Below are positions 154 through 38,441 of a stretch of DNA of 38,481 nt, in pieces. Numbering within the stretch: the first letter of the stretch is position 1; the number at the start of each line of letters is the position of its first letter. The stretch is from a virus (taxonomy: Duplodnaviria; Caudoviricetes): positions 1-38,481 of IMG/VR virus record IMGVR_UViG_3300010222_000009, one strand, 5' to 3'. The translations under genes were made by a program, and so were the position numbers. The notes beneath the pieces were generated by a model, which was given only the letters and a program-made list of their open reading frames with translations, was not told the DNA's origin and ran no database searches.

Positions 154-1125
154 ATGAGTTCCGAGGCGGAGGAGCCTGCCGATGAGGAACCGGACCCCAT
201 TGAGATATTCGAGGAGGCTAACGCGGAGTTCCAAGAGGCGATAGCTGAAATTGATGATGGAAACCCCGGAGCCGCCTCCTCCCGCATGGAGGCGGTGGAT
301 GGGTTCTTGAAGCGGATTGCATCGGCCGACCCCGACCCGATGCTTAAACGACAGTCAATCGCCATCGTTGCCGAGTCGGTCGGATTCATGACCAAAGGGG
401 AGACGGAGAAACAACTTGAGAACCATCTCCGCCAGCAAAAAAGCCAACGAGCGGAGCGGCCGGAGATTAGCCGGCTCTTGCAGGAGCGGGTTCGGAAAAT
501 CGAGAAACTCGTTGCCGATGAGAGCGGAGCAGAGGCCCGATATCGATTCTTATTCGATAACGACCCCTCGCTTATCGTTGACCCGGAAACGCTTTACTCT
601 CCGACCAAATTCCGGCGAGAATACAATGGCGTCTTTGATGTTCTCCCTCGGTTCGAGGGGACACAAGAAGATTGGGAGAACCTCCTACATGACCTCCAAC
701 AGAGTCGGTTAGTCTCAAAACCGGATGCTGTTGGCCCGCGGTCGGCCGCCATCCAAAAGCTGCGCTCGAAGGTTGCCAAATCCGAGGCGTATCTGAATGC
801 CGGCGATGCGATTCGGAACAACGGTATATTGATCGATGCTCCCTCTCCCGAGGAGGCAGAGGCGGCATCGGTAATCTGGATAGCCTCGGAGGAAATCAAG
901 CGAATCTGCGATGAGCAAGAGATCACCCCCGAGGCGCTCCGCCTCGAAATGGATAACCGCAACTTAAGAGCGGGGACCTCTGAAGAAAAGCGATTCGGCG
1001 GAAATCAGGCCTATTTCTGGCCGCTCCGGGCCGATGAGTTCGAGCCGAAACTCATCGAGTCGCCGGAATCGGTCGGGGAGACGGAGAACAGTGAGCAACA
1101 GCAATCGCCAGAAGGCGATGGATAA
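154..1125 (+). CDS. Hypothetical protein, first gene of replication module
   Basis: 323-aa acidic ORF with genome-typical codons; no motif recognised. Confidence 0.75.
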   Translation: MSSEAEEPADEEPDPIEIFEEANAEFQEAIAEIDDGNPGAASSRMEAVDGFLKRIASADPDPMLKRQSIAIVAESVGFMTKGETEKQLENHLRQQKSQRAERPEISRLLQERVRKIEKLVADESGAEARYRFLFDNDPSLIVDPETLYSPTKFRREYNGVFDVLPRFEGTQEDWENLLHDLQQSRLVSKPDAVGPRSAAIQKLRSKVAKSEAYLNAGDAIRNNGILIDAPSPEEAEAASVIWIASEEIKRICDEQEITPEALRLEMDNRNLRAGTSEEKRFGGNQAYFWPLRADEFEPKLIESPESVGETENSEQQQSPEGDG

Positions 1126-3362: not shown

Positions 3363-4268
3363 ATGAGCAACGATATCGAGGATGACCCCGAGGTAAAGAA
3401 TGTAAGACACAACGGAGCGAAAGATCGTTTTGTTTTCGTTTCTGGAGGGATGGATTCGGTTGCGATGGCCCATTTCCTCATTGAAAACGAGTGGTCGAAA
3501 GATTACGGAGCATGGAAAAAACGGCCCGTTGTGATTTACCTCGATACCGGGATTGGGCTTTCGAGCCAACGCATTTATGTCGAACTTCTTTGTGACCATT
3601 ACGGTTGGTCACTTTGGAAACTCCGAACAAATGAGAATTTCGAGGAGTTGGCCGAGGAACAAGGGTTCTATGGCCCGAGGAGTCATAACAAGATATTCAA
3701 TCGGCTCAAGGGCCGGCAATTCGATAAACTCTCAACGATATCGGCTAACGCTCACTTCTATACCGGCATCCGCTGGGATGAGTCTCCAGCGAGGTCGGAG
3801 AGCGTTCGGGAGGAGTACGATGATAAGATGGGGGCATGGTTCCATAATCCGATACTTGAATGGTCGGATGAGGATGTCGTTGAGTACCTCCGGGAAAATG
3901 ACGTTCCGTTCAATCCGAATTGGGACTCTCCCCATTTCACCGATTGCGGATGCGGAGCAACAGCATCGAGAGAGGAACTCATCGAGTTGGAGGCGGAGGG
4001 GTATGAGGTCATGGCTCGGAAACTTCGGGAATTGGAGGAGCGAACCGAGAAAGATGACAAAACCAGCGTATGGGCATGGGGTTCGTTCGAGGATGATGCG
4101 GTCGAATGGCTCGATGACTCCGATAACGAGGTTGCCTCCGCTCGATTCCTCTGCTCGGGGAATTGCTCCTCGAAATCGAGAGCATTGGATGCGGAGCGGT
4201 TGACTAACCGAGCGCCGGAGGGGAATCCCGGCGGCTCCGAGGAGGCTGGTTTCGATGAGCGAAAGTGA
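3363..4268 (+). CDS. PAPS reductase-family (PP-loop) protein
   Basis: SGGMDS PP-loop, YLDTG, GIRWDES, NPILEWS, C-terminal DCGCG; start chosen at ATG 3363 after GGAGG. Confidence 0.85.
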   Translation: MSNDIEDDPEVKNVRHNGAKDRFVFVSGGMDSVAMAHFLIENEWSKDYGAWKKRPVVIYLDTGIGLSSQRIYVELLCDHYGWSLWKLRTNENFEELAEEQGFYGPRSHNKIFNRLKGRQFDKLSTISANAHFYTGIRWDESPARSESVREEYDDKMGAWFHNPILEWSDEDVVEYLRENDVPFNPNWDSPHFTDCGCGATASREELIELEAEGYEVMARKLRELEERTEKDDKTSVWAWGSFEDDAVEWLDDSDNEVASARFLCSGNCSSKSRALDAERLTNRAPEGNPGGSEEAGFDERK

Positions 4269-6153
4269 AACCAAGAATGATATCGAGTTCGTTGATAAGC
4301 GGGAACTCCCGGAGGTCCGATATCGGAACGAGTACGTTAAGAAATGGAGCGAGGTCGCCACCGCTCTCCGATACCGCCTCCGCATCGAGGAGCGAGATGC
4401 GTATGATGCGAAAGCCTCCGCCGCCTCCCCGGAGCCGCTCGAACCCGGCGATGAGGTTGAGGTCAAGGCATGCAAACAATGGGTTGAGAATGGCGATGAG
4501 TACGGAACGAGCGGCAGATGGCATATCACCGATTCGAGCCATGAAACCCTCCTCGAACATGGCGGGTATTACGTTCTCGCCGTTTACGACCTCGTTGATG
4601 ATGTTGCTGGGGGAGAGCGGGTTCGCATTCTCGGAATGGAACTCGTTTCCGCCGAACGGGTTGATGAGGAGTTGTTCCGAGGCGGGAGTTGCGATTCCCA
4701 TCGGCTCGGGTACAAATGGTTATTCCCGGATGTTCATCCCTCCTCGGATGACCCTCGGGAGAGAGTCAAGGGAGACGGCCAGCAACCCGCCAACGAGCGG
4801 GAGGAGAACTCCGGGGGTGATGGCCCGGAACCCGAACCGGAATTCGCTGGGGAGTCGGAGAGCGGCGAGGAGGAGCCGCCAGCGGTTAAGGTCATCTCGA
4901 ACGAACAACGTCACCCATCCGACTTGAGGGATAAGGAGATATGGGTCGTTTGGGCATTCGATGATGCTGGCCGAAAACGACCGAGAGCGCCATGGCAAAC
5001 CGGCCATTGTTACCCGGTTAGTTGGGGGGAGGATGCGGCTCAACGACCGGAAACCTCGTTCGAGGAGGCCCGGAAATGGAGCCAATTCGGAGCGGAGATT
5101 CAACAGCAATGGCCGTTTCCGGAGGATTCTCCGGATAAGAGCCTCAAACTCGGGATGTTCCTCCCGCACGACTCGCCGGAACCCCCCATCATGCAAATCG
5201 ATTTGGATAACGTTCGCCATCCTGAAACCGGGGAGTTGGTTCCCGAGGCGGCATCCATCCTCGATGAGTTCCCGGAAACGTATGCCATCGTATCCGTCTC
5301 CGGAAAAGGCATCCATCTATATGTTCGAGCGGCTCTCGATGACCGGGGGAAGTTCGTTGAGCCGCTGGGGGAGTACGATGCGCCAGCGTTCGAGGGGTTG
5401 ACCGAGCCGCCGCAACTCGAATTGTATGACCATGGCCGCTTTTGCGCTATAACGGGCCAGCATATTGAGGGAGCGGGGACCGAGGTTCCCGAGGCTCAAG
5501 AGCGGGTTGACCGCCTCGTTGAGCAATGGGATACGACCGAATGCGCCTCATGTGGTCGGACGTATCAAACCCGGGAGCTCCCGGAGCCGGGGGATGACGG
5601 GCCGCTCGAATGCCCGGATTGCGGCGAGGAGATGGGTTCGGATACTCGGGAGTTCGACCCCGAGCGGTATCGGCGGCAACGGGATTTGGATAGTTCGGCC
5701 GGGAATCGTTCCCCGTATTTCTCGGAGCCAATTGAGCGGTTCGGGGAACCGAAAGCGAACGGGGCATCAACCGGCGAGGGATTCGGCGGAGCGCATCCCG
5801 CTCATGGCGGAACGTCATCCCCGGATTCGGAATCAACCAACTATGCGGTCAACGTCTCCGAAAACGCATGGTACTGTTTCGCTCATGGCTCCGGAGGCGG
5901 GCCGTTGAGCCTCGTTGCTGTTATTGAGGGGGAGTTGCGATGCCGAAACCCGAACCTCTCGAACCTTGATGATGAGGAGTATCTCAAGGTATGCCTCGCC
6001 GCTCGGGATGATTACGGATTCTCCGGTGACCCACCATACCGCGCGCTCGTTGGGGTTGCCCGGGAGCACAATCTTCCGATGGCCGATGAGGAGGAGGGCA
6101 TCCTCGGGCATGATACGTATGGCGTTGCCCGCCGAATATACAACAATAGTTGA
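4255..6153 (+). CDS. Primase-polymerase (AEP-like) with N-terminal PD-(D/E)xK-like domain and C-terminal Zn-binding domains
   Basis: IDLD, SVSGKGIHLY, LELYDHGRF motifs; CASC..CPDC ribbon; HPAH..WYCFAH; N-terminal YDA..EVKAC. Confidence 0.75.
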   Translation: MSESETKNDIEFVDKRELPEVRYRNEYVKKWSEVATALRYRLRIEERDAYDAKASAASPEPLEPGDEVEVKACKQWVENGDEYGTSGRWHITDSSHETLLEHGGYYVLAVYDLVDDVAGGERVRILGMELVSAERVDEELFRGGSCDSHRLGYKWLFPDVHPSSDDPRERVKGDGQQPANEREENSGGDGPEPEPEFAGESESGEEEPPAVKVISNEQRHPSDLRDKEIWVVWAFDDAGRKRPRAPWQTGHCYPVSWGEDAAQRPETSFEEARKWSQFGAEIQQQWPFPEDSPDKSLKLGMFLPHDSPEPPIMQIDLDNVRHPETGELVPEAASILDEFPETYAIVSVSGKGIHLYVRAALDDRGKFVEPLGEYDAPAFEGLTEPPQLELYDHGRFCAITGQHIEGAGTEVPEAQERVDRLVEQWDTTECASCGRTYQTRELPEPGDDGPLECPDCGEEMGSDTREFDPERYRRQRDLDSSAGNRSPYFSEPIERFGEPKANGASTGEGFGGAHPAHGGTSSPDSESTNYAVNVSENAWYCFAHGSGGGPLSLVAVIEGELRCRNPNLSNLDDEEYLKVCLAARDDYGFSGDPPYRALVGVAREHNLPMADEEEGILGHDTYGVARRIYNNS

Positions 6154-6559: not shown

Positions 6560-6648
6560 TTGATGTTAACTGTTTCGTCGTTAACTTTATATCGTTAGCC
6601 GTTCAATCGTTAACCCAACGGGTTACGTTGCCCGTTCGAGGGATTGGC
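6560..6648 (+). promoter_or_regulatory. Early operon promoter with GTTAAC operator-like repeats
   Basis: TTTATA box near 6586 flanked by GTTAAC at 6565, 6580 and 6609; AT-rich divergent intergenic region. Confidence 0.6.
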
Positions 6649-8958
6649 ATGTACGCACGCTCTACAGAACACGGCTCCGTCGAACCGCTCACAACCGAAA
6701 TCAACGACGTTACCGGGATTCTCCGGCTTATAATCGAACTCCCGTTCGAGGCTCGCCGGTTCGAGTTCTCGCTCCCCGCTGGGGAGGAGAGCCTTGATGC
6801 CTCGAACGAGGATGAGGTTCCCGTTCTCCGCCGCGTTCTCGATACGCATGCGGGAGAGGTCATCCGTACCCGCTCGCTCCCGACCGTCATCAAGGAGGTT
6901 TGCATTGCTCGGTTCGGAGGCGTTCGTACCCGAACCGAATGGTTCTCCGCGCGGGCAACCATCGAGCCGGTTCCGACCGCTATCGTTCCCGCCGATACGT
7001 ACCCCGACCCCGTTTCCGCTGGCGAGCCGGTCGATTCGACCGATGCGGAGGTTCGCAACGCCATCGAGGAGTTCGAGGCGAGCGGCGAAACGGCTATGAC
7101 CGATGGCGGTCGGGAGCGGCTCCCCCGCTTTTGCCCGAACGATGATGAGCGCCTCGAACCCCGCTCCGAAGAACCCCTTGAGGTCGAATGCCCGGAATGC
7201 GGATACGAATCTCCCCGGAATCTCCGAGAGGAGACGATCAAGATTTGCCATAAGAACGCCAGCATCTCCGAGAACTCCCGGGGCGAGGGAGAGCCATACG
7301 TGGCTGAAATCGAACTCGGGGGTGTTGTTCAAAACGTTGCGCTCTCCCGCCCGTTCGTTCGGGAGGAGGTTTCCGATCCGGAGGTTATGACGGATGGCGG
7401 CTCCGAGGAACTCGCTCCGGTCATCGAACCGACCGAGTTCGAGGAGGGTGAGCCGGTCGTTTTCCGCTATACCTCGATATCCAGCGGTACCGAGCAAGAG
7501 CGGAGCGGGGAGGTCATCGAAACCCGCGTTTCGGATAATTACTCATGGTCGTCTAATTGGGTTCGCATCGAGGGAGATGACGGTCGCTTTTACAAGGTTG
7601 ATGAGGAGGGTCGGGCGACCTCATGTGAACCGAGCGACTCCTCGGAAACCGGGTATAGTTTCCTCGCTAATCTCGGAGGCGATGCTCGGTTGATCCGGCC
7701 CGTTTCAACCGATAGCGGCGAGCCGGAGGATGACGTTGAGCGCATGCGAGGGGAACTCCGGGAGGTTTACTCCGAACTCATCGAGCGCCATGAGAGCCTC
7801 AAGGAACAAGCGAGAGAGGCGAAACTCGAATACCGTGAATCCGAGGCGGTTCATGATGAAATCCGAACGAAAGAGTTGGCGGCGGCTCGGGATGAGTGTA
7901 TCACCAACGTTCGGAGCATCGAGGAACTCCTCAACAAATGGAGCGAGCGGTATGATGAGCCTGCGACGGATGGCGGCCAGCGGAGAGTTCCCGAGAGCGG
8001 CGAGCGGGCAACGTTGACCGTTGTTGAGGAAACCAGCGGGGAGACGGTCGAACTCCCCGGCGAGGTTGACCATGCCTCCCGAGTCGAGAGCCGGGTTTAC
8101 GATGGCGAGGATGATGAGAGCGGGCACATGGAGCCGGGCGTTATGGGCTACGCCGAAACCGATGACGGTCGGCGGCTCTCGTTCAATACAGCCAACGACC
8201 GCCTAACCGAGCATCATCCCGAGGCGGAGGAGGCGGAGGATTCCGTTGAGTTCATCGGGGTTCTCGTTGAGGCGGAGTTCGAGAACCATGGCGAACTCAT
8301 GACCGATGGAGGCGGGCGAATTTCGGAGGTCGGCGGGGTCGGTTTTGCGTTTGCTGGCCCCGGCGACGAACTCCGCCAATGCCCCGAATGCGGCACGATA
8401 AACAACATGTTCGTTAACGACACCCGTTGCTATTCATGTGGGTTCCGCTGGGGGAGCGACGGCAAGGTTCTCGATGATGATGGGGATGATGACGGGGCCG
8501 AAATATTGACCGATGGCGGTCGGCCCGTCCGGGAGGAGGAGGAGCATCGTACCTTGATGGGAAAATACAACCCCGATGAATGGAACCCGGAACCCGACCC
8601 CGAGTATCATCGGAGCGGCGAGGTTTCGATTCATGACCCCATCGAGGGGGAGGCGTACTCCGAGCCGGGGCATTGGGCCGACCGGCCCGCCGATATGGAT
8701 GCGGAGCATGCCCGCCGCCTCGCTCTCCGAGGAGAGTTCGATGACCTCGGTGAGCATCAACCGCTCCCGCTCCTCTCATCAAGCATGCGGGGCGTTCCGA
8801 CCGAGGGGGTTCAAGGGAGTTATTCGCATGTCATTGAACTAGATGAGCCTTGTCCCGAATGCGGGGAACGTTGGGGCGTTCATTTCTGTCATTCAACGAT
8901 GGGAGGGGTTCACTCCGAGCGTTGTCTCATTTGTGAGGCGGAATTGATGGCCCCTTAA
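6649..8958 (+). CDS. Multi-module protein with five TDGG linkers (CxxC and beta-barrel-like modules)
   Basis: Open frame of about 769 aa from ATG 6649; TDGG at 7099, 7390, 7966, 8302, 8509; CPECG three times. Confidence 0.85.
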   Translation: MYARSTEHGSVEPLTTEINDVTGILRLIIELPFEARRFEFSLPAGEESLDASNEDEVPVLRRVLDTHAGEVIRTRSLPTVIKEVCIARFGGVRTRTEWFSARATIEPVPTAIVPADTYPDPVSAGEPVDSTDAEVRNAIEEFEASGETAMTDGGRERLPRFCPNDDERLEPRSEEPLEVECPECGYESPRNLREETIKICHKNASISENSRGEGEPYVAEIELGGVVQNVALSRPFVREEVSDPEVMTDGGSEELAPVIEPTEFEEGEPVVFRYTSISSGTEQERSGEVIETRVSDNYSWSSNWVRIEGDDGRFYKVDEEGRATSCEPSDSSETGYSFLANLGGDARLIRPVSTDSGEPEDDVERMRGELREVYSELIERHESLKEQAREAKLEYRESEAVHDEIRTKELAAARDECITNVRSIEELLNKWSERYDEPATDGGQRRVPESGERATLTVVEETSGETVELPGEVDHASRVESRVYDGEDDESGHMEPGVMGYAETDDGRRLSFNTANDRLTEHHPEAEEAEDSVEFIGVLVEAEFENHGELMTDGGGRISEVGGVGFAFAGPGDELRQCPECGTINNMFVNDTRCYSCGFRWGSDGKVLDDDGDDDGAEILTDGGRPVREEEEHRTLMGKYNPDEWNPEPDPEYHRSGEVSIHDPIEGEAYSEPGHWADRPADMDAEHARRLALRGEFDDLGEHQPLPLLSSSMRGVPTEGVQGSYSHVIELDEPCPECGERWGVHFCHSTMGGVHSERCLICEAELMAP

Positions 8959-8977
8959 CCGAGGCTCACCGCTTGCG

Positions 8978-9030
8978 GCCAACCGCCTCCGATGGTTCGG
9001 CATCGCCGGGTTCGATTCCCGGAGTCGGCT
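8978..9030 (+). ncRNA. tRNA-like mini element (T-arm plus imperfect acceptor stem)
   Basis: CCGGG-TTCGATT-CCCGG T-arm (9006-9022), CGATG/CATCG hairpin, GCCAACC/AGTCGGC partial pairing; intergenic. Confidence 0.55.
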
Positions 9031-9069
9031 TGCGGTTTCCGGTTATCCCGAAAACCGGGGAGCAAAGCA

Positions 9070-9426
9070 ATGAATGAGGATTCCGAGAGGAGTCAAGCAA
9101 GGCTCTCCCCCGAAACAGCGGAACAAGAGCAACCGTATCGAATCGGTGACCATGTGACCGACCGGGAGGAGGATGAGGAAAAGCCGATCCTGGTCGTTGG
9201 CGTTTCCGGTCATCTCGCTCGGGACTACCGAGTTGAGGGAGCGAACGCCACCGTTGCCGAACTCAACCCGCAGTACCCAAAGGCGGATGAGGTCGTTGAG
9301 GTTGTGTTCGTTCAAAAGACGGATACCAACCTCGCCAACAGCAAGCGGTACGCATATCCGAGTTCCCGGCTCAAGCATCGTAACTCGATTCATCCGACCG
9401 AGGCGGAGGAGGAAAACGAACAATGA
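9070..9426 (+). CDS. Haloarchaeal virus-type hypothetical protein
   Basis: GDHVTDRE..TVAELNPQYP..YAYPSSRL pattern resembling small haloarchaeal proviral proteins (recollection, not searched). Confidence 0.75.
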   Translation: MNEDSERSQARLSPETAEQEQPYRIGDHVTDREEDEEKPILVVGVSGHLARDYRVEGANATVAELNPQYPKADEVVEVVFVQKTDTNLANSKRYAYPSSRLKHRNSIHPTEAEEENEQ

Positions 9427-9731: not shown

Positions 9732-10649
9732 ATGACGCAATGGCAACAGCACATGCGCGAGAACGCGGAAAGGTTCCCGGAGTCATCGTTCGATGAATCC
9801 GGCGAGGAAACGCTCAACAACGGGGAGAGAGGTTGCGGCCATCTCAGTGAGGGGAAGGGATACCTCCGCTCCGATGTTGCTGGGGTTGGCGGAACGCTTT
9901 CCCCGATGGTCCAAATCCCCAGCGAGCAACGAATCCCGTTCAAGGAGGAGCATTTCCGAACATGGAAAACGTTTCCCGGAGTTCAATTCGAGTTATCGCT
10001 CATCGAGGAGGCGGCGGGTATCGAGCCCGAGGGAGCCTCTCCGATGGAATACGTCTCCGCTCTCAAATCCGGCGGATGGGATGAGGGGGAACTATGGGAG
10101 CATCTTAAGCGTCTCGCGGGCTCCGCTCATCCGCTCGATGCTGGGATGGGAGGCTCCGACCATTACGGAACGATGCGGGTTGCTCAAGCCAATGATATCA
10201 TCATGTGGGTCGGGGAGACGTATTACCCCCACCCCGAGGATTTCATCTCCGAAACGAAAGAGCGAGGCTTGAACAAGGCCATCTCGATGAGTACCCGGAA
10301 CCCACCGCCGGTCATCAACCCCGGCAAAACGAGGTTGTTCCTCATTCATCCGAAGGGTATCGATAACTACCCGGAGACGGATGAGGAGGAACTCGATGGG
10401 ATGGGCATCGAGGAGGAGGATAGATACACCGCCGCCATCATCGGGTATGCCTACATAACCCGATGCATCTATACCGAGGATGCCGATGGCCGAATCCCGG
10501 ATTACATCGAGCGTTGGGAGGCGGCGGATGACCTCGATGTTGTTTCCCCCGGTCGGGAAATCAGCAGAGAGGAAATGGAGAACGAGAGCATCGAGGGGGC
10601 GGCAGAACAAGCGGAGGCGGCCAGCGATGAGGTGGGGGGAGATGACTAA
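9732..10649 (+). CDS. Hypothetical viral protein (ERGCG motif)
   Basis: 305-aa acidic ORF in tight operon. Confidence 0.8.
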   Translation: MTQWQQHMRENAERFPESSFDESGEETLNNGERGCGHLSEGKGYLRSDVAGVGGTLSPMVQIPSEQRIPFKEEHFRTWKTFPGVQFELSLIEEAAGIEPEGASPMEYVSALKSGGWDEGELWEHLKRLAGSAHPLDAGMGGSDHYGTMRVAQANDIIMWVGETYYPHPEDFISETKERGLNKAISMSTRNPPPVINPGKTRLFLIHPKGIDNYPETDEEELDGMGIEEEDRYTAAIIGYAYITRCIYTEDADGRIPDYIERWEAADDLDVVSPGREISREEMENESIEGAAEQAEAASDEVGGDD

Positions 10650-10893
10650 GGAGTTCGATTCGATGGATATCGAACTCGTTGAGGAGGCTTACAACCATCT
10701 CACGGAGCATTCCCCAGCGAACGCCTCCGCCGCCGCCTCCGACCTCTCGGAAATCATCCATCGGTACGGGGAGGATGACGTTCGGCCCGCCGGGTACTCC
10801 CGCGTTGCCGATGCTGTTGATGCGCTCAAGGAGAGCGAGGTCAAGAGAGCGGAGGAGATACTCAACTCGGTCATCCGGGAGGTAACCACATGA
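10642..10893 (+). CDS. Hypothetical protein
   Basis: MTKEFDS..., overlaps both neighbours, SD-like GAGGTG upstream. Confidence 0.7.
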   Translation: MTKEFDSMDIELVEEAYNHLTEHSPANASAAASDLSEIIHRYGEDDVRPAGYSRVADAVDALKESEVKRAEEILNSVIREVTT

Positions 10894-11489
10894 CCGACCG
10901 GGGCGAGCCGCTGGCGGTTGCGGATGATGCCTCCCTCCGGGAGTTCGTTGAGGCGATGCGAGAGAATGTTGCCGGGATGACCGGAGCGATATTCGGAACC
11001 GATGAGGATGACCTCCGCCTCGCCTCTCTCTCCGCAACGTTCGTTAGCGGCGATGGATACTCCGCCTCATCGAGCATCGATGCCCAATGGTTCGAGGAGG
11101 GGGATTTCGAGCATGGCATTGATGAATATCAACGGTTGGCCGAGGAGTTCGCCAGCAACAACGACCTTGAACCCGATGATGCTCCCTCTCAATGGGATGT
11201 TGTTGAGGAGGAGTTCCGGGAATTGCGGGAGGAGTTCGAGCGGCTCCGGTTTGACCATGTTCCCGAGTTTGGCTCCGATGGCTGGGGGGCCGCCGCCGGG
11301 AACAAGCCGGTCGAACCGCTGGCGGAGGAGATGGCGGATGCCGTCTTTACCATCCATCTCCTCGCTCGGATGCTGGGGGTTGACCTCCGCCGGGAGTTCG
11401 TCGAGAAAGCGGAATACAACCTCGAAAAGAGCGGCGAGCGGGATGAGAACGGCAAAATCATCGATGATGCGGAGGCGAGCGATGACTGA
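10890..11489 (+). CDS. MazG-like nucleotide pyrophosphohydrolase domain protein
   Basis: EEEFRELREE..LAEEMADAVFTIHLLARMLGVDL..EKAEYN all-alpha NTP-PPase signature. Confidence 0.8.
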   Translation: MTDRGEPLAVADDASLREFVEAMRENVAGMTGAIFGTDEDDLRLASLSATFVSGDGYSASSSIDAQWFEEGDFEHGIDEYQRLAEEFASNNDLEPDDAPSQWDVVEEEFRELREEFERLRFDHVPEFGSDGWGAAAGNKPVEPLAEEMADAVFTIHLLARMLGVDLRREFVEKAEYNLEKSGERDENGKIIDDAEASDD

Positions 11490-11814
11490 TAAGGTTCGCC
11501 TCCCCAGCGGCGAGGTCGTTGAGCGGTCGGAGTTAGAGGAGGGAGAGGAATGTACCCGATGCGGCGGGTTCGTTCCGCTCGTTGAGAAAGACGGAACCCT
11601 CAACCGGGATGACCCCCGGATATTCCGGTTCGAGCATGAGGGGATGGCGCTCAACGATGATACAAGCCGCCGGGTACTGTCCCCCCATCGGCTCGGGTAT
11701 CTTTGCCCGGATTGTGAACATGAGTTCCGCTCCGAGTTCCTCGGAGACTCATATGAGGGAACGCATCAACATCCGAACCCGAGCGAAATCAAAGAAAGCG
11801 ATACCGATGAGTGA
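11482..11814 (+). CDS. CxxC Zn-finger protein
   Basis: CTRC and CPDC pairs; overlaps neighbours. Confidence 0.75.
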   Translation: MTDKVRLPSGEVVERSELEEGEECTRCGGFVPLVEKDGTLNRDDPRIFRFEHEGMALNDDTSRRVLSPHRLGYLCPDCEHEFRSEFLGDSYEGTHQHPNPSEIKESDTDE

Positions 11815-13150
11815 ACAACGATACACATACGCAACGATCGGCATCAACGACCAACGAGAGGAGCCGGTCATCGTAACTGGCAAACGAAATGTGTCGTTCG
11901 AGATTGGCGGCGAGGAGTTCGACCGAACGGCAACGCTCCGGCTCCCGGAGCGGATGACCTCCTCGGAGTTCAACCAATGGAAATCGGAATCGGGGGTTGA
12001 CCTCATTGATATCTATTTCCATTGCATCAAGCAAACGCCTCGGAAACCGGAACCGGCTCCCGAGGATGCTGGCGGCGAGGTCGGAGAGGAGGAGCAATCC
12101 GAACTCGTTACCGATGGCGGCTCCGACCAACAACCTGACCTCTCCGCGTTGGAGGAGGGGAACGAGGTTCGAGTATTCTATCGGTCAACCCGCTCGGGGA
12201 ACGAGGTCAAGAGAGAGGGAACCGTCTCCGAGGTCATCCCCTCGGAGGAGAACCGTATCGTTCGGGTTCATACTGAGGAACGAGAGCCGCTTAAACACAT
12301 ATTTCTCTGCATGACCGAGGCGGAGGATAACAGCGGAAAGGAGCGGGTATTCGCTTTCTCCCAAACGGCGGAGCCGGATTCCCTCGGATGGGAGGAGCGC
12401 CATGACCTCGCCCGCCCGGAACTCGGGGAGGTTTATACCCTCCGGTTCGAGGTATCCCGAAACTCATACCTCGGGCCGGTTGACCGCATCGTTAGAACCG
12501 ACCGGGCAACCCCCATCATGATGACCGATGGCGGCGAGGAGGTTTGCCCGTCATGCTGCGAGGAGGGGGAGCGCCCCCCCGGCCTCGGAGAGAATCTCCG
12601 GGCATGCATGAACCTCGAATGCCGGGTTAACGAGTTCGAGGTCAATCGAACGGCAACCGATGGCGGCTCCTCGATGCCTAAGATGGCGCTCGAACATCTC
12701 AAGGAACTCGATGCAACGGATGACAAAATCGGGGAATGGCTCTCCGAAAAGGTCGGGGAACCCATCGGCGGGATGACCGACCTCTATGCCTCCGAGCATT
12801 CAATCCCGGATGCGATGAACGAGGTCGAACTCGGGGAGGGATTCTCCCTGAAAGAGCCGGCATACATCGAACTCCTAACGTTGCTCGATCACGGTCGGGA
12901 GGCGGCGGCATCCGACCCCCCGACTCTCGGAGTTCGCAACCGGCTCCTCATGCAACTCATCTTAGCCAACCCCGAGGCTTACGCTCGCATCCGTAAGGAA
13001 ATGGAGGAGCGGGCAAAGGAGGCTCATGAGGAGATGCAACAGCGAATGAATCAAGAGCGGGAACGCCAGCGGATGACCGAGCGAGCCGCCGACCTCGATG
13101 GCGATGCCGTTGATATCGCGCTCGATGATGAGGAGGATGCCGATGAGTGA
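11807..13150 (+). CDS. Second multi-module protein with three TDGG linkers
   Basis: TDGG at 12110, 12524, 12656; CPSC..CMNLEC module; C-terminal coiled coil. Confidence 0.85.
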   Translation: MSEQRYTYATIGINDQREEPVIVTGKRNVSFEIGGEEFDRTATLRLPERMTSSEFNQWKSESGVDLIDIYFHCIKQTPRKPEPAPEDAGGEVGEEEQSELVTDGGSDQQPDLSALEEGNEVRVFYRSTRSGNEVKREGTVSEVIPSEENRIVRVHTEEREPLKHIFLCMTEAEDNSGKERVFAFSQTAEPDSLGWEERHDLARPELGEVYTLRFEVSRNSYLGPVDRIVRTDRATPIMMTDGGEEVCPSCCEEGERPPGLGENLRACMNLECRVNEFEVNRTATDGGSSMPKMALEHLKELDATDDKIGEWLSEKVGEPIGGMTDLYASEHSIPDAMNEVELGEGFSLKEPAYIELLTLLDHGREAAASDPPTLGVRNRLLMQLILANPEAYARIRKEMEERAKEAHEEMQQRMNQERERQRMTERAADLDGDAVDIALDDEEDADE

Positions 13151-13739: not shown

Positions 13740-15614
13740 TTACAGGGGGATTGTGTTCCCCGTTATCCCAATTCGGTTAGACTTGCAATGGCCGGTATTG
13801 TACCCAACGACCTCCGCGTTCACACCGTTATTGTCTGTTTCGCCCTCCCAAATGAGAGAGCCATCGGATTCCTTGAACGCTTTGAGGTTCCCGTTATCCT
13901 CCCCGACGTATATGTTACCGTCAACATGAGCCGGGGCGGATGCTGGATATGCAAAGCCGGGGCTACTATTTTCCCAATTTTTCAACCCATCCGCCCGGGC
14001 AATTGAGTAAAGACTCCCATCGGCGCTAGGGATGTATACATATCTATCATAAACCGTGGGGTCGGCGTAAGTCCCGCCGCTCCCGAATGAGAAATCCTTT
14101 GAACCGTCATCCTTGTTCAATTTCACAAGCGTTGTTCCGATCGTTCCGGCAAAAACGGCGGAGCCGGTCACCGCCGGGAAAACCCCTTGTATCGATGAGC
14201 CCGAGAGTGACGTTTGCCAATTGACCGACCCACCGGATGCCGACATACGGGTTACATCGGCTTTTTCCTCCCGAACGACATACAACGAACCGTCATCGTA
14301 TACCGGCGTTTTCGGCTTGCCCGTAAGCTCCTTTTTCCAATTCACATCGCCGTTTGCGGGGTCTAATGCATACACAAAGCCATCATGCGAGCCGACATAT
14401 ACATCCGAGTCCAAGGGCATCGGCGGGGCTTGGATGTTGCCCCCTGTGTCCTTTGTCCATTTGATAGAGCCATCGCTCTCATCAATGGCATACACCCGGC
14501 CCGATTGCGCTCCGGCATACAGCACCCCATCCCGTAACGCAACCCCGGAGTCACAAGCGAAATCGGCGGCGGAACTCCAAAAAACCGAGCCATCGGCTTT
14601 ATCGAGGGCGGTAACTCCCGCCTCTGCCGAATCCCTGTCGGGAACATAGAAATTATCGGAGTCTACGGCCCCGGCGTTTTGGCCCATGTTGGAGATGCCT
14701 GTTTTCCATATCCGGGACCCATCGGAGTCATTGAGTGAGTAGTGTACCCCGCTGGTTTGGCTCACAAACACATCGCCGGTCCCGATCGGCTCTTGCACGG
14801 TTATCGTTGCCGTATCGCTATCATCCGGCGATTTGACCGTTGCCGTATAGTCTCCGGCTGCCTCATCGGAGTCGGTATCCCATTGGAGGTAAATGACCGC
14901 CCTATCCTCCCCTTGTATATAGAGGTCGGGATACCTATCCTCCTCGGTCCCATCGATTTCGAGCCAAACGTCCTTTTGGTCTTCCGCCAACCCGGTATTT
15001 TCTACTGTAACGGTTGCCTCCGCCGTATCTCCTTGGTTGACCGGGGAGTTGGTATCGTCAATATTCACCTCATACGTTGCCGTTTGGCTCCCAACGGTCA
15101 CACTTTCCGTATCGGGGTCATCATCGGAGGATACTTTCGCAGTATAATCTCCCTCATCGCCGCTCGATGTATCCCATAGGAGGGTTGCGTCAAGTGATTC
15201 CCCGGCGTTGAGGGAAATGCCCCTATCCGCATCAACTTGATTGCCATTGATTTCGAGGGTTATGTCTTGGGTCCCGGAGGCGTTGCCGATGTTCTCAACG
15301 GTATAATCAACCTCCAACGTTTCCGTCTCCTCAACCGGGGAATTCGTTGAGATAATCACAATGTCGAAATATGCGGCGTCAACGGCCCCGATGAACGGCT
15401 TTGAATACGCATTGTAGTAATCGGAGCCATCATCGTATTGAGCCGCAACGTGGTACGTATCCGATGCGGAGAGGTTGTTAAAGGAATACTCCCCGTTGGA
15501 GTCGGTCGTTGTGGTCCCGGCGAGGGAGTCTTGCGAATCGTTGATGAGGGTGATTTTGACTCCCTCAACCGGGTCATCGTTGTTATCGGTCACCTTGCCC
15601 CGTATTTCGGCCAT
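13740..15614 (-). CDS. Putative receptor-binding/tail adhesin: Ig-like domain, 2 CARDB-like domains and PQQ-type beta-propeller
   Basis: GKVTD..PVEGVKITL..TTTDSNGEYSF; two TVENxG..W(D)T repeats; repeated G-x-x-x-W propeller blades; last tail gene. Confidence 0.8.
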   Translation of the reverse strand: MAEIRGKVTDNNDDPVEGVKITLINDSQDSLAGTTTTDSNGEYSFNNLSASDTYHVAAQYDDGSDYYNAYSKPFIGAVDAAYFDIVIISTNSPVEETETLEVDYTVENIGNASGTQDITLEINGNQVDADRGISLNAGESLDATLLWDTSSGDEGDYTAKVSSDDDPDTESVTVGSQTATYEVNIDDTNSPVNQGDTAEATVTVENTGLAEDQKDVWLEIDGTEEDRYPDLYIQGEDRAVIYLQWDTDSDEAAGDYTATVKSPDDSDTATITVQEPIGTGDVFVSQTSGVHYSLNDSDGSRIWKTGISNMGQNAGAVDSDNFYVPDRDSAEAGVTALDKADGSVFWSSAADFACDSGVALRDGVLYAGAQSGRVYAIDESDGSIKWTKDTGGNIQAPPMPLDSDVYVGSHDGFVYALDPANGDVNWKKELTGKPKTPVYDDGSLYVVREEKADVTRMSASGGSVNWQTSLSGSSIQGVFPAVTGSAVFAGTIGTTLVKLNKDDGSKDFSFGSGGTYADPTVYDRYVYIPSADGSLYSIARADGLKNWENSSPGFAYPASAPAHVDGNIYVGEDNGNLKAFKESDGSLIWEGETDNNGVNAEVVGYNTGHCKSNRIGITGNTIPL

Positions 15615-19999: not shown

Positions 20000-20992
20000 C
20001 TATGCGGGTTGGTGGATTTCGATTTCCATCTCTCGGGGCATCAAGCCGATATCCGGCTCAAGCTTCCCCTCGCCGGGAACCGGAGAGGCCGCCGCATCGA
20101 TGGTTGTTCCCTTGAGGCGGATGTAAAGCGCATCCGTAAGGTCGGCCCGAGCCGCCGTTGATTCCGGGTTCTTGTTGAAAACGAACTCGAAATCCATCGG
20201 CTCGCCATCGTTGTAAGCCTCCTCATACCATACGTAATCGGTTTGCGTGATTCCGAGCGTATGGTCATGCTTTTCCTCCGCCGTTTCCTCCGAGATGCTG
20301 TAAGCCTCCCGGCCCCGGCCATGATGGTTTGCCTCAAGCCCATTATCGAGTGAGAAATCAACCGAAGTCGGGGTTTTGATGGGGCCGAGTTGAGTTCCGT
20401 CCGATGTTCTCGATACCGTAACATCCTCCAACATCCAAAAGCGGTATGGAGATTCTTGAGGAATCGAGAGGCTCGGAGCGGCAGCGGGGGAGCCGCTCTC
20501 CGAGGTCGTTGGGTCAAGGCCAGCGGCCATGACGTTGAACGTCGTTGAGAGCGGTTCGCCTTGAGAGGCGCTCATCGAGAGGCTCGCCTTACATCCGGTG
20601 TAATAAGCCTCAAGGTTGCCATCTTGCCAGTGGCCGACCGTCATCGTTGGGAGCCTATCCGCCTCGTTGAAAACGACCTCATCGTAATCGCCGCTTCCCG
20701 GAGATTGGGTTCCGTTATCCGTTCGGCTGCCGAGACCCACCTCGATTGGCGGAGTTGCGTCAACGAGTTGAACGGGAACATCGAACTCAAGCTCCTTTGG
20801 GTCGGGGGAGTTGACGTAAACGCCTCGGGATTTCCCGCCGGTTGCCATCGGAGTTTGCGGGTTCGGGTTCGGAGGGTCGGCATCCTCCCGAATCAACCCG
20901 AAATAGTTGCTGGGATCGCTCGCTTTCGAGTATGCCGTTCCCTCAATGCCAAACGTAAGAACGCCACCGGAGGCGAGGAGATACCTAACCAT
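20000..20992 (-). CDS. Major tail tube protein
   Basis: 330 aa beta-rich; YTGCKASLSMS..GEPL, DFSLDNGLE motifs; synteny. Confidence 0.8.
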   Translation of the reverse strand: MVRYLLASGGVLTFGIEGTAYSKASDPSNYFGLIREDADPPNPNPQTPMATGGKSRGVYVNSPDPKELEFDVPVQLVDATPPIEVGLGSRTDNGTQSPGSGDYDEVVFNEADRLPTMTVGHWQDGNLEAYYTGCKASLSMSASQGEPLSTTFNVMAAGLDPTTSESGSPAAAPSLSIPQESPYRFWMLEDVTVSRTSDGTQLGPIKTPTSVDFSLDNGLEANHHGRGREAYSISEETAEEKHDHTLGITQTDYVWYEEAYNDGEPMDFEFVFNKNPESTAARADLTDALYIRLKGTTIDAAASPVPGEGKLEPDIGLMPREMEIEIHQPA

Positions 20993-28687: not shown

Positions 28688-31399
28688 CTACTTAGCGGCG
28701 GCTTTCTCCCATTGATACCATGTAGCTGTTGAGATGCTGAGATGCTCGCAGGCTTTGTTAACGGAGCCGCGGGATTCCTCAACGGATTCGAGGAGGCCGC
28801 CGATTCCGACCCCCGGCTGTCCGTGTAACTTGAGAACCTCTCTCATCCGGTCGGAATCTTTCGGAACCGGCCATGCTCGAACCCCAGCGAGAGCGTTGAG
28901 GCTCCGAACGTCACTGGGCATATCCTCCTCAAGAACCGGCTCTTGAACGCATCGGCAATTAAACGGTTGGTCATCCCCGACCTTGAACGCCTCTCGGGGG
29001 TAATCGCTGGGTTGGTCGGAGTCTGAGACGGATGGAACAATGAACGAATCCTCTTTCGAAACAACCTCGCCATCCATGACCGCATGCCAATCTCGGGTTC
29101 GGGAGTCATCGGTTGCGTTCCAACCTTTGCCAGCAACAAGGTCGGAAGATTCGGCCAACGCTTGACTCCCCGCCGATTGGCTCATTCGCGTTTCGGTTCG
29201 GGCAACGAGGCGGGCATGGTTCGGGATGTTCGTATCGAGAACCTCCCGGAGTTCGGCGGTTGCCTCGGTGACATTGCCCCCATCCTCCGCAACGTTGAGC
29301 AACGTTCTCCGAACCGTCTCCTTGACGGTATCGCCAACGGTGACCATCCGAGCCGCCGCCTCTTGTTCCATCCGTTCGTAAGCGAACGTATCCTCAACAT
29401 CGAACGAGATTTCAACAGCAACCTCCTCCTCATCTTGTTTTTGCGAGAACCGCTTTTCCGCCTCCTCCTCAAGTTTCCCAGCATGATATTCGGCGGCGAT
29501 TTCCATCGCCTCCCGGTTGCGTTGAACGATGATGCTGGCGAGCGAGGAGCCGATGGCCGAACCGATATCCTCAAGGTCGTTCTCGAAATTCGGCATCGTT
29601 CCGAAATCTGTCGGCGGTTCATCCTCGGGGAAATGCTCCTCCGCCAGCGAGAGGAGGTCATCCTCGAACGAATCAATACCCGCCTCAACGTCATCGGCGG
29701 TATCATCAATATGATTGGCCAGCGGCGGGAATTGGAACTCGAAATCCTCGTTGCGGAGCGAATCATCCCGGAGGAGCATCTCCTTGTAATCGAGGCTCTC
29801 CTCCTCGTTCTCCATGGCTCCGCATATCGCCTCCGCCTCCTCCTCGGTCAAGTCAGGGTTGTTCTCAAGGAGCGTATCAACGCATTCATCGAAATCCTCG
29901 AACGGGCCGACCGGCTTACCCTCCGCTCGGAGTATGTCGGCCCGGTTCGGATTTCCCGAATCATCCCCAGCGGAGCGAGAGCCGGAGTAAGCGGAGAGCA
30001 ACCCGCCTCCCGGAGCCGGGGATGGCGGGTTCTCAACATCGGCCCAATTCTCTAAGGCCCAACCGGGATTGTTTCGGGCAACCGAGCGCATGAGTTCGAG
30101 GGGCATATCCCCCCAATCGAGCGGCTCCTCCCCTCTCTCTTGACGGATTTCGTTGACCGTTGCTGTTCCGCTCTCTAAATCCTCTTGTTGCCGCTGGCGT
30201 TCTCGCTCTTTCATCGCCGGGTTATCGATTTGCCATGCAAATTCAAGTTCCCCGTCAACCCGATGATACGGCTCCATGAAAGCGAGAACATGCCGGTTGA
30301 GGTCAGCGGCCATCCGATCAAGAACCGGCTTTGTTGTGGTTCGGAAAACGTTGGCCGCTTGTTCTTTCATCGTTGCCCGATTGATGTTCTCGATATCTCC
30401 GACTTCGCCTTGATTCAACCCGAAAACCATCCAAACGAGTTGATGATACCACTTTTGCGATGCCATGAACTCCAGTTCATCGGGGGTTGGCCGGAACGGT
30501 ATCCATTCGATTTGGGAGCCATCGCCGCCGATTATCGGGAGAACATGCTCTTGACCCTTGACCTCATCTCGCCAATATTGACGAAAGTTCTCAATTTCAT
30601 CTTGATTCGCCTCGATGACATTAACAACGCCATCGGGAACCTCGTTCTTAGCGAAATATGAGAGGTTCGAGGTATCTTGATTGAGGATGATTTCAGCAAT
30701 CCGCTTTGCCTGTTGAACTTGACCGAACCCGTAATGCCGCCATGGAGCCGGGTTCGTTTCCGTCCAAAGGATTTGCTCTCGGGAGAATCCGATGGGTTCG
30801 CCTCGCCGGGAAAGATACGGAGATTGCCCGCCGAACTCCTCCGCCATATCATGCAGGGATTTCGTTGGGTCGAACGGTTGGAACGCCCCCGAGAATTGGA
30901 ATTGCCAATAAGCCGCATCCGGCGGCTCGGGGAGCCGGTCATGATTATCAATGGATTTCGTAAATACGGCCCCATCCCTCGGATACAACTCATCAAGGAA
31001 CCCCCGTTCATCGGGTACTTTCTCGATGACCCCGGAATCAATCGAGACGATATCATGAACCCATTGCTTAGTGAGATGGTCGAACGGTTGCCCGTTGCTG
31101 TTGTAATTCCCCCGGAGGAACTCCTCGACTCCCTCCGCCGCTCGGGTATGCTCAACAGAGGGGTCATCAACCGTTGGCCGGATGACCCAATCGGTCGTTG
31201 AGACTTGCGTTTTGATTGTACCCAGCGGGAGGGAGATGGGATGCGTCTTTTCGAGCATCCGAACAACTCCGAGATCATCCCGGCGGGGAACACCTTTGTC
31301 CGGTTGAAAAAAGAAAGTTTGGCGCTCGCCTCTCGGTTCGGTTCCTTGTGCGTTTATCATCCCGAGTTCTCGCCGCTTACCGGGAGCAAATACGGGCAT
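28688..31399 (-). CDS. Portal protein fused to MuF (SPP1 gp7-like) domain and C-terminal HTH-like segment
   Basis: YGFGQVQ..YFAKNEVPDG..VFGL portal motifs; ARLVARTE..W.AT.D.RTR.WH..DG..FNCRC MuF motif; one 903-aa frame. Confidence 0.88.
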   Translation of the reverse strand: MPVFAPGKRRELGMINAQGTEPRGERQTFFFQPDKGVPRRDDLGVVRMLEKTHPISLPLGTIKTQVSTTDWVIRPTVDDPSVEHTRAAEGVEEFLRGNYNSNGQPFDHLTKQWVHDIVSIDSGVIEKVPDERGFLDELYPRDGAVFTKSIDNHDRLPEPPDAAYWQFQFSGAFQPFDPTKSLHDMAEEFGGQSPYLSRRGEPIGFSREQILWTETNPAPWRHYGFGQVQQAKRIAEIILNQDTSNLSYFAKNEVPDGVVNVIEANQDEIENFRQYWRDEVKGQEHVLPIIGGDGSQIEWIPFRPTPDELEFMASQKWYHQLVWMVFGLNQGEVGDIENINRATMKEQAANVFRTTTKPVLDRMAADLNRHVLAFMEPYHRVDGELEFAWQIDNPAMKERERQRQQEDLESGTATVNEIRQERGEEPLDWGDMPLELMRSVARNNPGWALENWADVENPPSPAPGGGLLSAYSGSRSAGDDSGNPNRADILRAEGKPVGPFEDFDECVDTLLENNPDLTEEEAEAICGAMENEEESLDYKEMLLRDDSLRNEDFEFQFPPLANHIDDTADDVEAGIDSFEDDLLSLAEEHFPEDEPPTDFGTMPNFENDLEDIGSAIGSSLASIIVQRNREAMEIAAEYHAGKLEEEAEKRFSQKQDEEEVAVEISFDVEDTFAYERMEQEAAARMVTVGDTVKETVRRTLLNVAEDGGNVTEATAELREVLDTNIPNHARLVARTETRMSQSAGSQALAESSDLVAGKGWNATDDSRTRDWHAVMDGEVVSKEDSFIVPSVSDSDQPSDYPREAFKVGDDQPFNCRCVQEPVLEEDMPSDVRSLNALAGVRAWPVPKDSDRMREVLKLHGQPGVGIGGLLESVEESRGSVNKACEHLSISTATWYQWEKAAAK

Positions 31400-31401
31400 T
31401 G

Positions 31402-32139
31402 TTATTCATTCGCCTCCTCGTTGCTGTTTGATTCCCTGAGCCATGGTTTTACGTAACTTTCGACAGTCTCCGATTCGAGTTCCTTGAGTTCCTCGATATT
31501 CCGAACGATGAAATGGAGCGCCTCCGGCTCCGATTGATTCATTTGAACGAACGTCTCCTCAATTTCCGTTGCTAACGATGCCCTATCCTCCTCGGTTGCA
31601 TCCTCGGAGAGTATCCATGCGTATGCATGCGAGCGGTCATCCCGGAGTTGGGTGACCTTCTTAATTGGGTCGGGCCACATTTCCCGCTCATCAACGAGGT
31701 CGGAGAGCTCCTCATCGGTGAGATGCTGGCCCAATATCCGCTTTCGAGGATGCTCCCCCTCCCCCTTGAGAGCGGTTTCGATGACCGCTCCGGGAGCAAC
31801 TTGAGAGCATGCCAACTCGACGAGGTCGTTTGTTGAGTAATCATCATCGGCATTGAACCCGACCCCGCCGCCGTTCGCAATCGAGCGGAGAGCCTCCTCG
31901 ATTTCCTCGGTATGGAATCGCTCGATGAGGAACGTTACCCGTTTGTTGCGCTCCTCGGTATACATCGCCGGGTTCTCCGGCTCCGGCGGGAGAGCGAGCG
32001 TTGCGAGGTCAACCCCGAGGCGCTCCGCCGCCCCCTCGATGACCCCGGCCCGACCGAGGTAACGGATGGTTGCGATTGAAACGCTGGCGATGGTTGCGAG
32101 CGATGCGGCGAACCCGATGATGAAAGTTAGGTTGTTCAT
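31402..32139 (-). CDS. Hypothetical protein with N-terminal TM helix
   Basis: 245 aa between TerL and portal. Confidence 0.75.
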   Translation of the reverse strand: MNNLTFIIGFAASLATIASVSIATIRYLGRAGVIEGAAERLGVDLATLALPPEPENPAMYTEERNKRVTFLIERFHTEEIEEALRSIANGGGVGFNADDDYSTNDLVELACSQVAPGAVIETALKGEGEHPRKRILGQHLTDEELSDLVDEREMWPDPIKKVTQLRDDRSHAYAWILSEDATEEDRASLATEIEETFVQMNQSEPEALHFIVRNIEELKELESETVESYVKPWLRESNSNEEANE

Positions 32140-35673: not shown

Positions 35674-35809
35674 GAGGTTGTACTCCGATCCCCCGGCCGT
35701 GTGGGGTTGCTCTTGTACGGAGTACAACGTTGAAACGCAAAATGGTTAGCAGAATTAACAGTTAACGGCGGATGTGGCTGGTAAGCCGATCAACGCAAGT
35801 ATCGAAAGG

Positions 35810-35873
35810 GATGCGGAGCCGGGCGTGAATCGTTCGAGGGATTGGCATGGTCGAACGAACCCGGCTCCGCATC
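35810..35873 (-). ncRNA. Candidate hairpin antisense sRNA targeting the start of the 6649 gene
   Basis: 14-bp plus 8-bp perfect stems; 35831-35849 identical to 6633-6651; CGAA-TTTAAATA promoter-like sequence on minus strand 26 nt upstream. Confidence 0.65.
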
Positions 35874-36250
35874 GGATTTTCGGATGCGCCGTATTTAAAT
35901 TCGCTGGCGTTGTCGGACCGCCGCCTCTATTACACGCGCATGAGCAAGAAACGTCGCTATCTAAAGATTCTGCGGATTAGGTTGCAAGTCACCGCCGCTA
36001 GTGGAATTAAGAACCATGATAGATTGTCGCAAGTCGGACCACTTGCGACAGTAAGGAAACCTCTCCGATAACCCTCTGTGTTGCGGTTAGTCGGCTTTAT
36101 TTCACCGAGCCGGTGCAAGTCATAGAACTCCCTATTTATGAAATCTGTAGATGGAGACGTTTCTGCTACACGCGCGTACAATAGAGATAGGAATAACTAA
36201 CAGGGGAGGCTCCGGATGACCTCCGGTGGGGGCCAAATCACGCTATCAAT

Positions 36251-38385: not shown

Positions 38386-38426
38386 ATACCAGCGTATTAC
38401 TGGCGGCATGTAAACATGCGGTTTAC

Positions 38427-38441
38427 ATCCCTCCACCGGCT
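38427..38441 (+). repeat. att core, right copy
   Basis: ATCCCTCCACCGGCT identical to 40-54. Confidence 0.93.

What the first reader, a model, noticed from the sequence alone, without database searches (positions are those of the whole stretch)
6649..8958. Polyprotein-like ORF: microprotein modules joined by five TDGG linkers
Seen: (M/A/L)TDGG at 7099, 7390, 7966, 8302 and 8509 divides the protein into six segments. Three segments carry CxxC Zn-finger motifs and two start with a shared beta-rich motif. Third codon positions vary (ACC/ACG, GGC/GGA/GGT) while the peptide is invariant, suggesting protein-level selection. Established: Gly-Gly|X is the cleavage site of ubiquitin/SAMP processing (JAMM proteases) and of ASFV polyproteins. 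Inference A: a viral polyprotein cut after GG, releasing small effectors with C-terminal diglycine that might also engage host sampylation. Inference B: ACSGATGGMGG is a recombination microhomology for in-frame cassette shuffling. With the antisense hairpin upstream and the tRNA-like element downstream, this looks like one regulated, possibly undescribed system.
Basis: partly seen in the sequence, partly recalled or inferred. Interest (0 to 1): 0.85.

Follow-up and report, generated by a model that had tools for sequence, protein, structure and literature searches.

The report
Swappable halovirus protein cassettes, host tag
A virus of salt-loving archaea builds two proteins as chains of small interchangeable modules joined by a short tag (two greasy residues, then Thr-Asp-Gly-Gly) that host proteins also carry in tails and linkers, and the tag likely marks where modules are swapped and is predicted, but not shown, to be a site cut by a host protease.

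Summary
Confirmed: ORF 6649-8958 (769 aa) of a temperate haloarchaeal tailed virus has five in-frame TDGG. A sixth, decayed junction (TDSG, 7708) and a second chain (11807-13150, three TDGG) were missed. Homologues are mosaics: with the motif masked, 134 of 244 alignment ends lie within 5 residues of it (random 25), module order is permuted, and modules move between the two loci. Similar chains with unrelated modules occur in 9 of 401 Halobacteria genomes. The tag (E-[LIV]-[MV]-TDGG) follows each lineage's codon bias, so the peptide is what is conserved, although the DNA core is uniform within this lineage. New: it is a host motif, enriched 5.6-fold in host proteins and present in 26 of 30 cytochrome oxidase subunit I tails or linkers. 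Cassette swapping is shown by comparison. Cleavage is untested, and JAMM1 or sampylation has no support. The tRNA-like element belongs to the next gene. I found no paper on the motif. The scan noted cassette chains with other motifs in other viruses, none with this one.

The parts
6649..8958 (+). Chain 1, 769 aa, seven modules
6649..7110 (+). N-terminal anchor module ending AMTDGG (first module in 7 homologues; replaced by an unrelated one in G403)
7111..7401 (+). Cassette with Cys-rich zinc-ribbon-like start, ends VMTDGG
   Evidence: weak Pfam, E 0.013
7402..7719 (+). Cassette ending in decayed junction TDSG (7708-7719), TDGG in P0002
7720..7977 (+). Helical, coiled-coil-like cassette, ends PATDGG
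   Evidence: P0023, P0017; helices from a low-confidence model
7978..8313 (+). Cassette shared with P0002, P0003, P0009; ends LMTDGG
8314..8520 (+). Two-CxxC zinc-ribbon cassette; stand-alone 41-48 aa forms exist; ends ILTDGG
8521..8955 (+). C-terminal two-CxxC module; stand-alone forms exist; predicted to fold alone (pLDDT 79), no fold match
11807..13150 (+). Chain 2, 447 aa, junctions at 12110, 12524, 12656; fixed ends, swapped and permuted internal cassettes
6633..6651 (+). 19-nt translation-start region of chain 1, repeated exactly at 35831-35849
35790..35900 (-). Hairpin upstream of the late operon whose minus-strand loop is complementary to the chain 1 start (possible antisense RNA or shared operator)

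Best explanation
The gene is a chain of small interchangeable protein cassettes joined in frame at a peptide tag (hydrophobic-hydrophobic-TDGG) that host proteins also carry, and the tag likely serves as the crossover point for swapping cassettes and is predicted to be cut after Gly-Gly by a host protease. Shown: modules change exactly at the tag, change order and move between loci; the peptide, not one DNA word, is shared across unrelated elements and with host proteins. Inferred: (1) small viral genes ending in the tag (where its Gly codons double as the Shine-Dalgarno of an overlapping gene) fused into chains; (2) the 10-14 nt of shared codons let short-homology recombination add, drop and reorder cassettes in frame; (3) a host factor reads the peptide, most likely a protease releasing separate microproteins from one early gene. 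Odds: swapping at the tag about 0.93; selection on the peptide about 0.85; cleavage about 0.45; JAMM1 as the enzyme about 0.07.
For: Mosaic homologues: 22 chains, 105 segments, 18 shared module clusters; 134 of 244 motif-masked alignment ends within 5 aa of the motif against a random mean of 25, maximum 40. Order swap P0042 versus P0043; motif-only 7-9 aa cassettes. Logo over 87 contexts in 25 proteins: E/R 61, then L/I/V 54, M/V 64, T 75. Codons -1 and -2 keep second-position T (12 and 10 of 14) while positions 1 and 3 vary. Asp codon is GAT in 12 of 12 internal sites of this lineage and GAC in 27 of 29 in other elements; 22 different 12-nt cores among 37 such junctions. 26 of 27 neighbouring motif pairs are in frame and open. 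Host: 18 observed against 3.2 expected, 11 permutations 0-4, no out-of-frame DNA excess; oxidase subunit I 26 of 30, including 7 of 7 subunit I+III fusion linkers; symporter tails 12 of 15. Modules also exist as separate genes. Haloferax joins ends at 4-20 nt homologies (PMC12281630, passages).
Against: No cleavage datum of any kind. The DNA core is more uniform than codon use predicts in this lineage (GAT 14 of 14, GGC 13 of 14, GGY 14 of 14; background 0.78, 0.56, 0.42), which a DNA-only model also explains. Decayed junctions are tolerated (TDSG here; ADGS in P0046, ANGG in P0011). The host motif is not obligatory: 3 of 10 glutaredoxin-thioredoxin reductase fusions, absent from 3 of 15 symporter tails. 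It is often repeated 11-13 aa apart and sits 2-3 residues from C-termini, which suits a binding motif as well as a cut. Some host sites (oxidase subunit II linker, lactamase-LTD linker) are probably outside the cell (inference). Alignment ends and orthologues are not independent samples.
Confidence: 0.45

Rival explanations
1. The tag is an uncut docking motif for a host factor (chaperone, scaffold or degradation machine); the chain stays whole as beads on a string, and cassettes still swap at the shared codons.
For: Tandem copies in host tails and at both ends of DUF4212 proteins; sporadic gain and loss in linkers; copies 2-3 residues from the stop.
Against: Does not explain well why nearly every viral junction keeps it, or why modules start immediately after GG (78 of 112 starts within 5 aa).
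Confidence: 0.27
2. No factor reads the peptide: it is a favoured flexible-linker or Shine-Dalgarno by-product of gene ends, spread only because it is a common short homology.
For: All 5 terminal copies examined have SD-like Gly codons and an ATG 7-8 nt on; SD constrains upstream C-termini in haloarchaea (PMC6728339, passages); DNA core uniform here.
Against: Oxidase tails keep it 3-30 residues before the stop without SD-type spacing; the hydrophobic pair and Thr are not part of an SD; permuted motifs are not enriched; wobble bases vary across elements.
Confidence: 0.18
3. A site-specific recombinase acts on ACCGATGGCGGY as an integron-like site.
For: Core has 3-4 bp inverted arms; a tyrosine integrase lies at 37123-38436.
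Against: Core differs between elements, occurs almost only in frame, arms are very short, and relative G403 has both chains but no DNA match to the integrase.
Confidence: 0.05
4. The nascent peptide makes the ribosome release the chain and go on (2A-like stop-go), or internal starts make the pieces.
For: Ends in Gly like 2A peptides (recalled).
Against: Residue after GG is free, Pro in 2 of 87; 6 of 41 internal sites have any ATG within 18 nt and at varying spacing.
Confidence: 0.05

Closest known systems
Polyvalent proteins of phages and conjugative elements (Iyer et al. 2017, PMC5512222; abstract and passages seen)
   Same: Unrelated domains strung in variable order in a mobile-element protein, with predicted release by proteolysis.
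   Different: Those hold recognisable enzymes, often their own zincin peptidase, and are scarce in archaea; 'linker' occurs 0 times in the text. Here modules are unannotated microproteins, no peptidase is embedded, and every joint bears one motif shared with the host.
African swine fever virus pp220/pp62 and adenovirus Gly-Gly-X processing (recalled, no call)
   Same: Gly-Gly at module ends with a free next residue.
   Different: Those are structural, fixed in order and cut by a viral clan CE protease; here the genes lie on the non-structural strand, order varies, and no such protease was found.
SAMP/JAMM1 system of Haloferax volcanii (PMC4443979, passages seen)
   Same: JAMM1 cuts a linear SAMP1-MoaE fusion right after GG in vivo, so a host GG-cutting enzyme exists.
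   Different: The substrate shown is a ubiquitin-fold protein ending VSGG; no module here matched such a family.
CxxC zinc-finger microproteins of haloarchaea and haloviruses (PMC7911831, passages seen)
   Same: Several cassettes are such small CxxC proteins and have stand-alone relatives.
   Different: Described as separate genes; 'DGG' occurs 0 times in that paper.

Membership tests
Polyvalent proteins | Several disparate domains in variable order in a mobile-element protein | tested here: met
Polyvalent proteins | Domains from the described enzyme set, often a zincin peptidase | tested here: not met
   No Pfam or PHROG family for P0001; no HExxH in either virus's called genes
Polyvalent proteins | Injected with the DNA | not testable with these tools
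   Gene lies among replication genes, opposite the structural operon
ASFV-type GG polyprotein | Cleavage after Gly-Gly | not testable with these tools
   No peptide data reachable
ASFV-type GG polyprotein | Virus-encoded GG-specific protease | tested here: inconclusive
   Only the S78 prohead protease is recognised; conserved ORFs 154-1125 and 9732-10649 stay unassigned
JAMM1/SAMP substrates | Beta-grasp domain before the GG | tested here: inconclusive
   No such Pfam hit for ten segments; whole-chain model unusable; 7-50 aa cassettes are too short
Prohead-protease-processed head cargo | Same motif in capsid, scaffold or portal | tested here: not met
   No TDGG in structural genes of the window or G403; one EDGG in each portal
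Integron or site-specific cassette arrays | DNA site conserved independently of frame and codon bias | tested here: not met
CxxC zinc-finger microproteins | Two CxxC in a small domain with stand-alone forms | tested here: met
   Modules 8314-8520 and 8521-8955; zinc binding itself not tested
tRNA gene (8959-9030) | Cloverleaf scoring as tRNA | tested here: not met

The most novel reading that the evidence does not exclude
Haloarchaea have an undescribed Gly-Gly processing pathway: a host protease cuts at hydrophobic-hydrophobic-TDGG in disordered tails and linkers (cytochrome oxidase I/III, symporters), and unrelated viruses and plasmids exploit it as a plug-and-play polyprotein system whose cut site is also the recombination joint.
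Probability: 0.4. Interest if true: 0.9.

Novelty: new variant of a known kind. Interest (0 to 1): 0.75.

Why it matters
It gives a defined, testable peptide signal shared by haloarchaeal hosts and their mobile elements that I found in no paper. If cut, it reveals a new archaeal protease pathway, a route by which viruses assemble and renew sets of microproteins under one start signal, and a short tag for expressing several proteins from one gene in Haloferax. Even uncut, it explains how many long unannotated halovirus ORFs should be split for annotation.

Tried and rejected
DNA for most homologues was not found: scans of viral, metagenome and genome contigs gave no confirmed close locus for chain 1 (two weak ones) and one for chain 2. 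No match among annotated phages; four cultured haloviruses have no multi-TDGG chain. The two-motif DNA pattern gave 0 viral hits and mostly unrelated genome hits. One sequencing run, probably the source, showed no variants or joints; no RNA holder listed. Single-sequence fold of P0001 was unusable (pLDDT 37). The C-terminal module had no fold match. JAMM1 with residues 215-262: no answer, neither support nor evidence against. Atlas searches did not name ORFs 9732-10649 or 154-1125. Supplements of PMC10575869, PMC7305310 (one file unread), PMC8241124 and PMC10869688 held no TDGG, ADGG or PDGG; PMC10117724 (cut file, sheet list and 5 rows seen) showed protein sequences, no processing data. Raw peptide data outside these files could decide the question. 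The first breakpoint test failed on BLAST options and was redone. L145 (G085) is a repeated surface domain with internal ITDGG and was left out of the chain count.

Full report
Setting. The window is a 38.5 kb haloarchaeal tailed virus: portal, large terminase, prohead protease, tail tube and tyrosine integrase by Pfam, capsid, tape measure and primase by PHROGs; its terminase is 33-36% identical to those of Halorubrum and Haloarcula viruses. Structural genes are on the minus strand. The ORF lies on the plus strand after the primase.

Observation. The 769-aa ORF and its five TDGG are as described, far above chance (0 of 20,000 shuffles with 3 or more). A second ORF, 11807-13150, has three more, and these eight are all the TDGG in six frames. 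TDSG at 7708 is a decayed sixth joint. One contig at depth 51 spans the region in the probable source run; that is not independent support.

Modules swap at the motif. Protein searches gave 6 long relatives, 26 representative hits, 11 short and 14 relatives of chain 2. Cut at the motif, whole segments match end to end while neighbours differ. Of 25 proteins with two or more TDGG I dropped three cluster mates of P0003 and kept 22 (P0054, another mate, stayed in): 105 segments form 38 clusters, 18 shared; 134 of 244 internal alignment ends fall within 5 residues of the masked motif, against 25 at random (ends are not independent). Starts are sharper than ends (78 of 112 against 56 of 132), so a cassette is domain, acidic spacer, tag. 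Two cassettes swap order between P0042 and P0043, and one occurs in both families. Relative G403 has, at the same place and behind the same leader, a chain with a different first module that shares only the zinc-ribbon cassette. Two modules also occur as stand-alone proteins.

Peptide or DNA. In 14 joints of the window and G403 the core is more uniform than context-matched codon use, which fits crossover at, or common descent of, these codons. But the two codons before Thr keep hydrophobic identity with free first and third bases, and the logo is E-[LIV]-[MV]-T-D-G-G (D, G, G fixed by my selection). A frame-blind pattern for three motifs hit 14 of 401 Halobacteria genomes, reversed control 0. 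I translated loci of 12: nine hold in-frame chains of other modules, two hold repeats in host membrane-protein tails, one is an unrelated repeat domain. The three chains whose surroundings I scanned have tyrosine integrases nearby; the mobile nature of the other six is inferred. Their modules are shuffled among themselves and gave no hit to the window's families. They use GAC where this virus uses GAT and many wobble variants. So unrelated elements share the peptide, not the DNA word.

A host motif. In 2.4 Mb of five genomes (own gene caller; 1,951 of 2,245 genes after removing 40 kb around the selecting hits; the genomes were chosen through motif hits) hydrophobic-hydrophobic-TDGG occurs 18 times against 3.2 expected; permutations give 0-4 and local shuffles 1-6; the DNA word is not enriched out of frame. 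Of 12 such sites in proteins with a clear Pfam domain, 10 lie outside it, in tails or linkers (one unclear site left out). In 30 fetched oxidase subunit I loci (best per genome, of 61 matches) 22 have [TAS]DGG after the last helix, and by eye 3 more have PDGG and 1 PEGG; all 7 I+III fusions carry it in the linker; the 4 without are one subtype with a C-terminal extension. Symporter tails have it in 12 of 15 and DUF4212 tails in 11 of 13, many from close relatives. Glutaredoxin-reductase fusions have it in 3 of 10, unfused ones in 0 of 14, so it is not obligatory.

Likely origin. Five viral genes ending in the tag use GGA or GGG codons resembling GGAGGTGA with an ATG 7-8 nt later; internal copies do not. 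Haloarchaea use such intragenic SD motifs for reinitiation (PMC6728339, passages). Gene ends of this kind are likely the raw material: fusion turns coupled genes into one chain, and short-homology joining (4-20 nt, PMC12281630, passages) would reshuffle it in frame. This step is inferred.

Mechanism. I favour cutting after GG by a host enzyme (0.45): the tag is host-wide, is used by unrelated elements, sits at the I/III boundary, and modules begin right after GG with any residue. JAMM1 cuts a linear SAMP1 fusion after GG (PMC4443979, passages), but no module resembles SAMP. An uncut docking motif (0.27) or a passive linker (0.18) remain open. No experiment or peptide record was available.

Flanking elements. 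The T-arm-like element at 8975-9050 is conserved in G403 but in front of the next gene, about 400 nt and one ORF away from the chain. The start region of chain 1 is repeated in a hairpin upstream of the late operon: 19 nt in the window, 18 nt in G403, only 9 nt across viruses; 8 of 300 random 60-nt windows have an exact 17-mer elsewhere. This co-variation suggests antisense control or a shared operator, untested.

Novelty. Searches listed no paper on this motif in haloarchaea (listings only; subscription journals are largely missing). Closest are polyvalent proteins (PMC5512222, abstract and passages). The scan's earlier notes describe cassette chains with other motifs in other viruses; none had TDGG. 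Verdict: real, a new variant of cassette polyproteins, with a host motif as the novel core.

Noticed in passing
window 35790-35900; G403 20775-20885: Strong hairpin upstream of the small terminase gene carrying an 18-19 nt copy of the chain 1 start region, co-varying in two viruses; in the window the antisense part is in the minus-strand loop.
   Followed up: partly
window 8975-9060; G403 31421-31510: Conserved non-coding element with a GGGTTCGATTCCCGG T-arm and further stems in front of ORF 9070-9426; not a tRNA by ARAGORN or Rfam.
   Followed up: partly
L080 (minus strand, about 5011-5173); L242-L271: Haloarchaeal cytochrome oxidase subunit I tails and I+III linkers carry one to four copies of the tag.
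   Followed up: yes
L149, L272-L286: DUF4212 protein and the adjacent sodium:solute symporter carry the tag at N-leader and C-tail, sometimes as tandem repeats.
   Followed up: partly
L146, L147, L148: A PadR-like domain (named by eye) is a separate gene ending in the tag in two elements and an internal cassette in a third.
   Followed up: partly
L150, L153: Cassette chains end in a large primase-like module (by eye), so big enzymes may be cassettes too.
   Followed up: no
window 9732-10649: 305-aa ORF between the two chains, 75% identical in G403, no family or Atlas hit; a candidate for any virus-encoded processing factor.
   Followed up: partly
window 154-1125: Conserved 323-aa ORF with weak primase-like Atlas neighbours (TM under 0.5).
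   Followed up: partly
window 28688-31399: Portal fused to a Mu gpF-like domain.
   Followed up: no
window 13740-15614: Probable tail adhesin with carboxypeptidase-regulatory, CARDB and PQQ-type propeller domains, replaced by another protein in G403.
   Followed up: no
window 3363-4268 and 10890-11489: PAPS-reductase-domain gene and MazG-like gene among the early genes; neither matched a called gene of G403.
   Followed up: no
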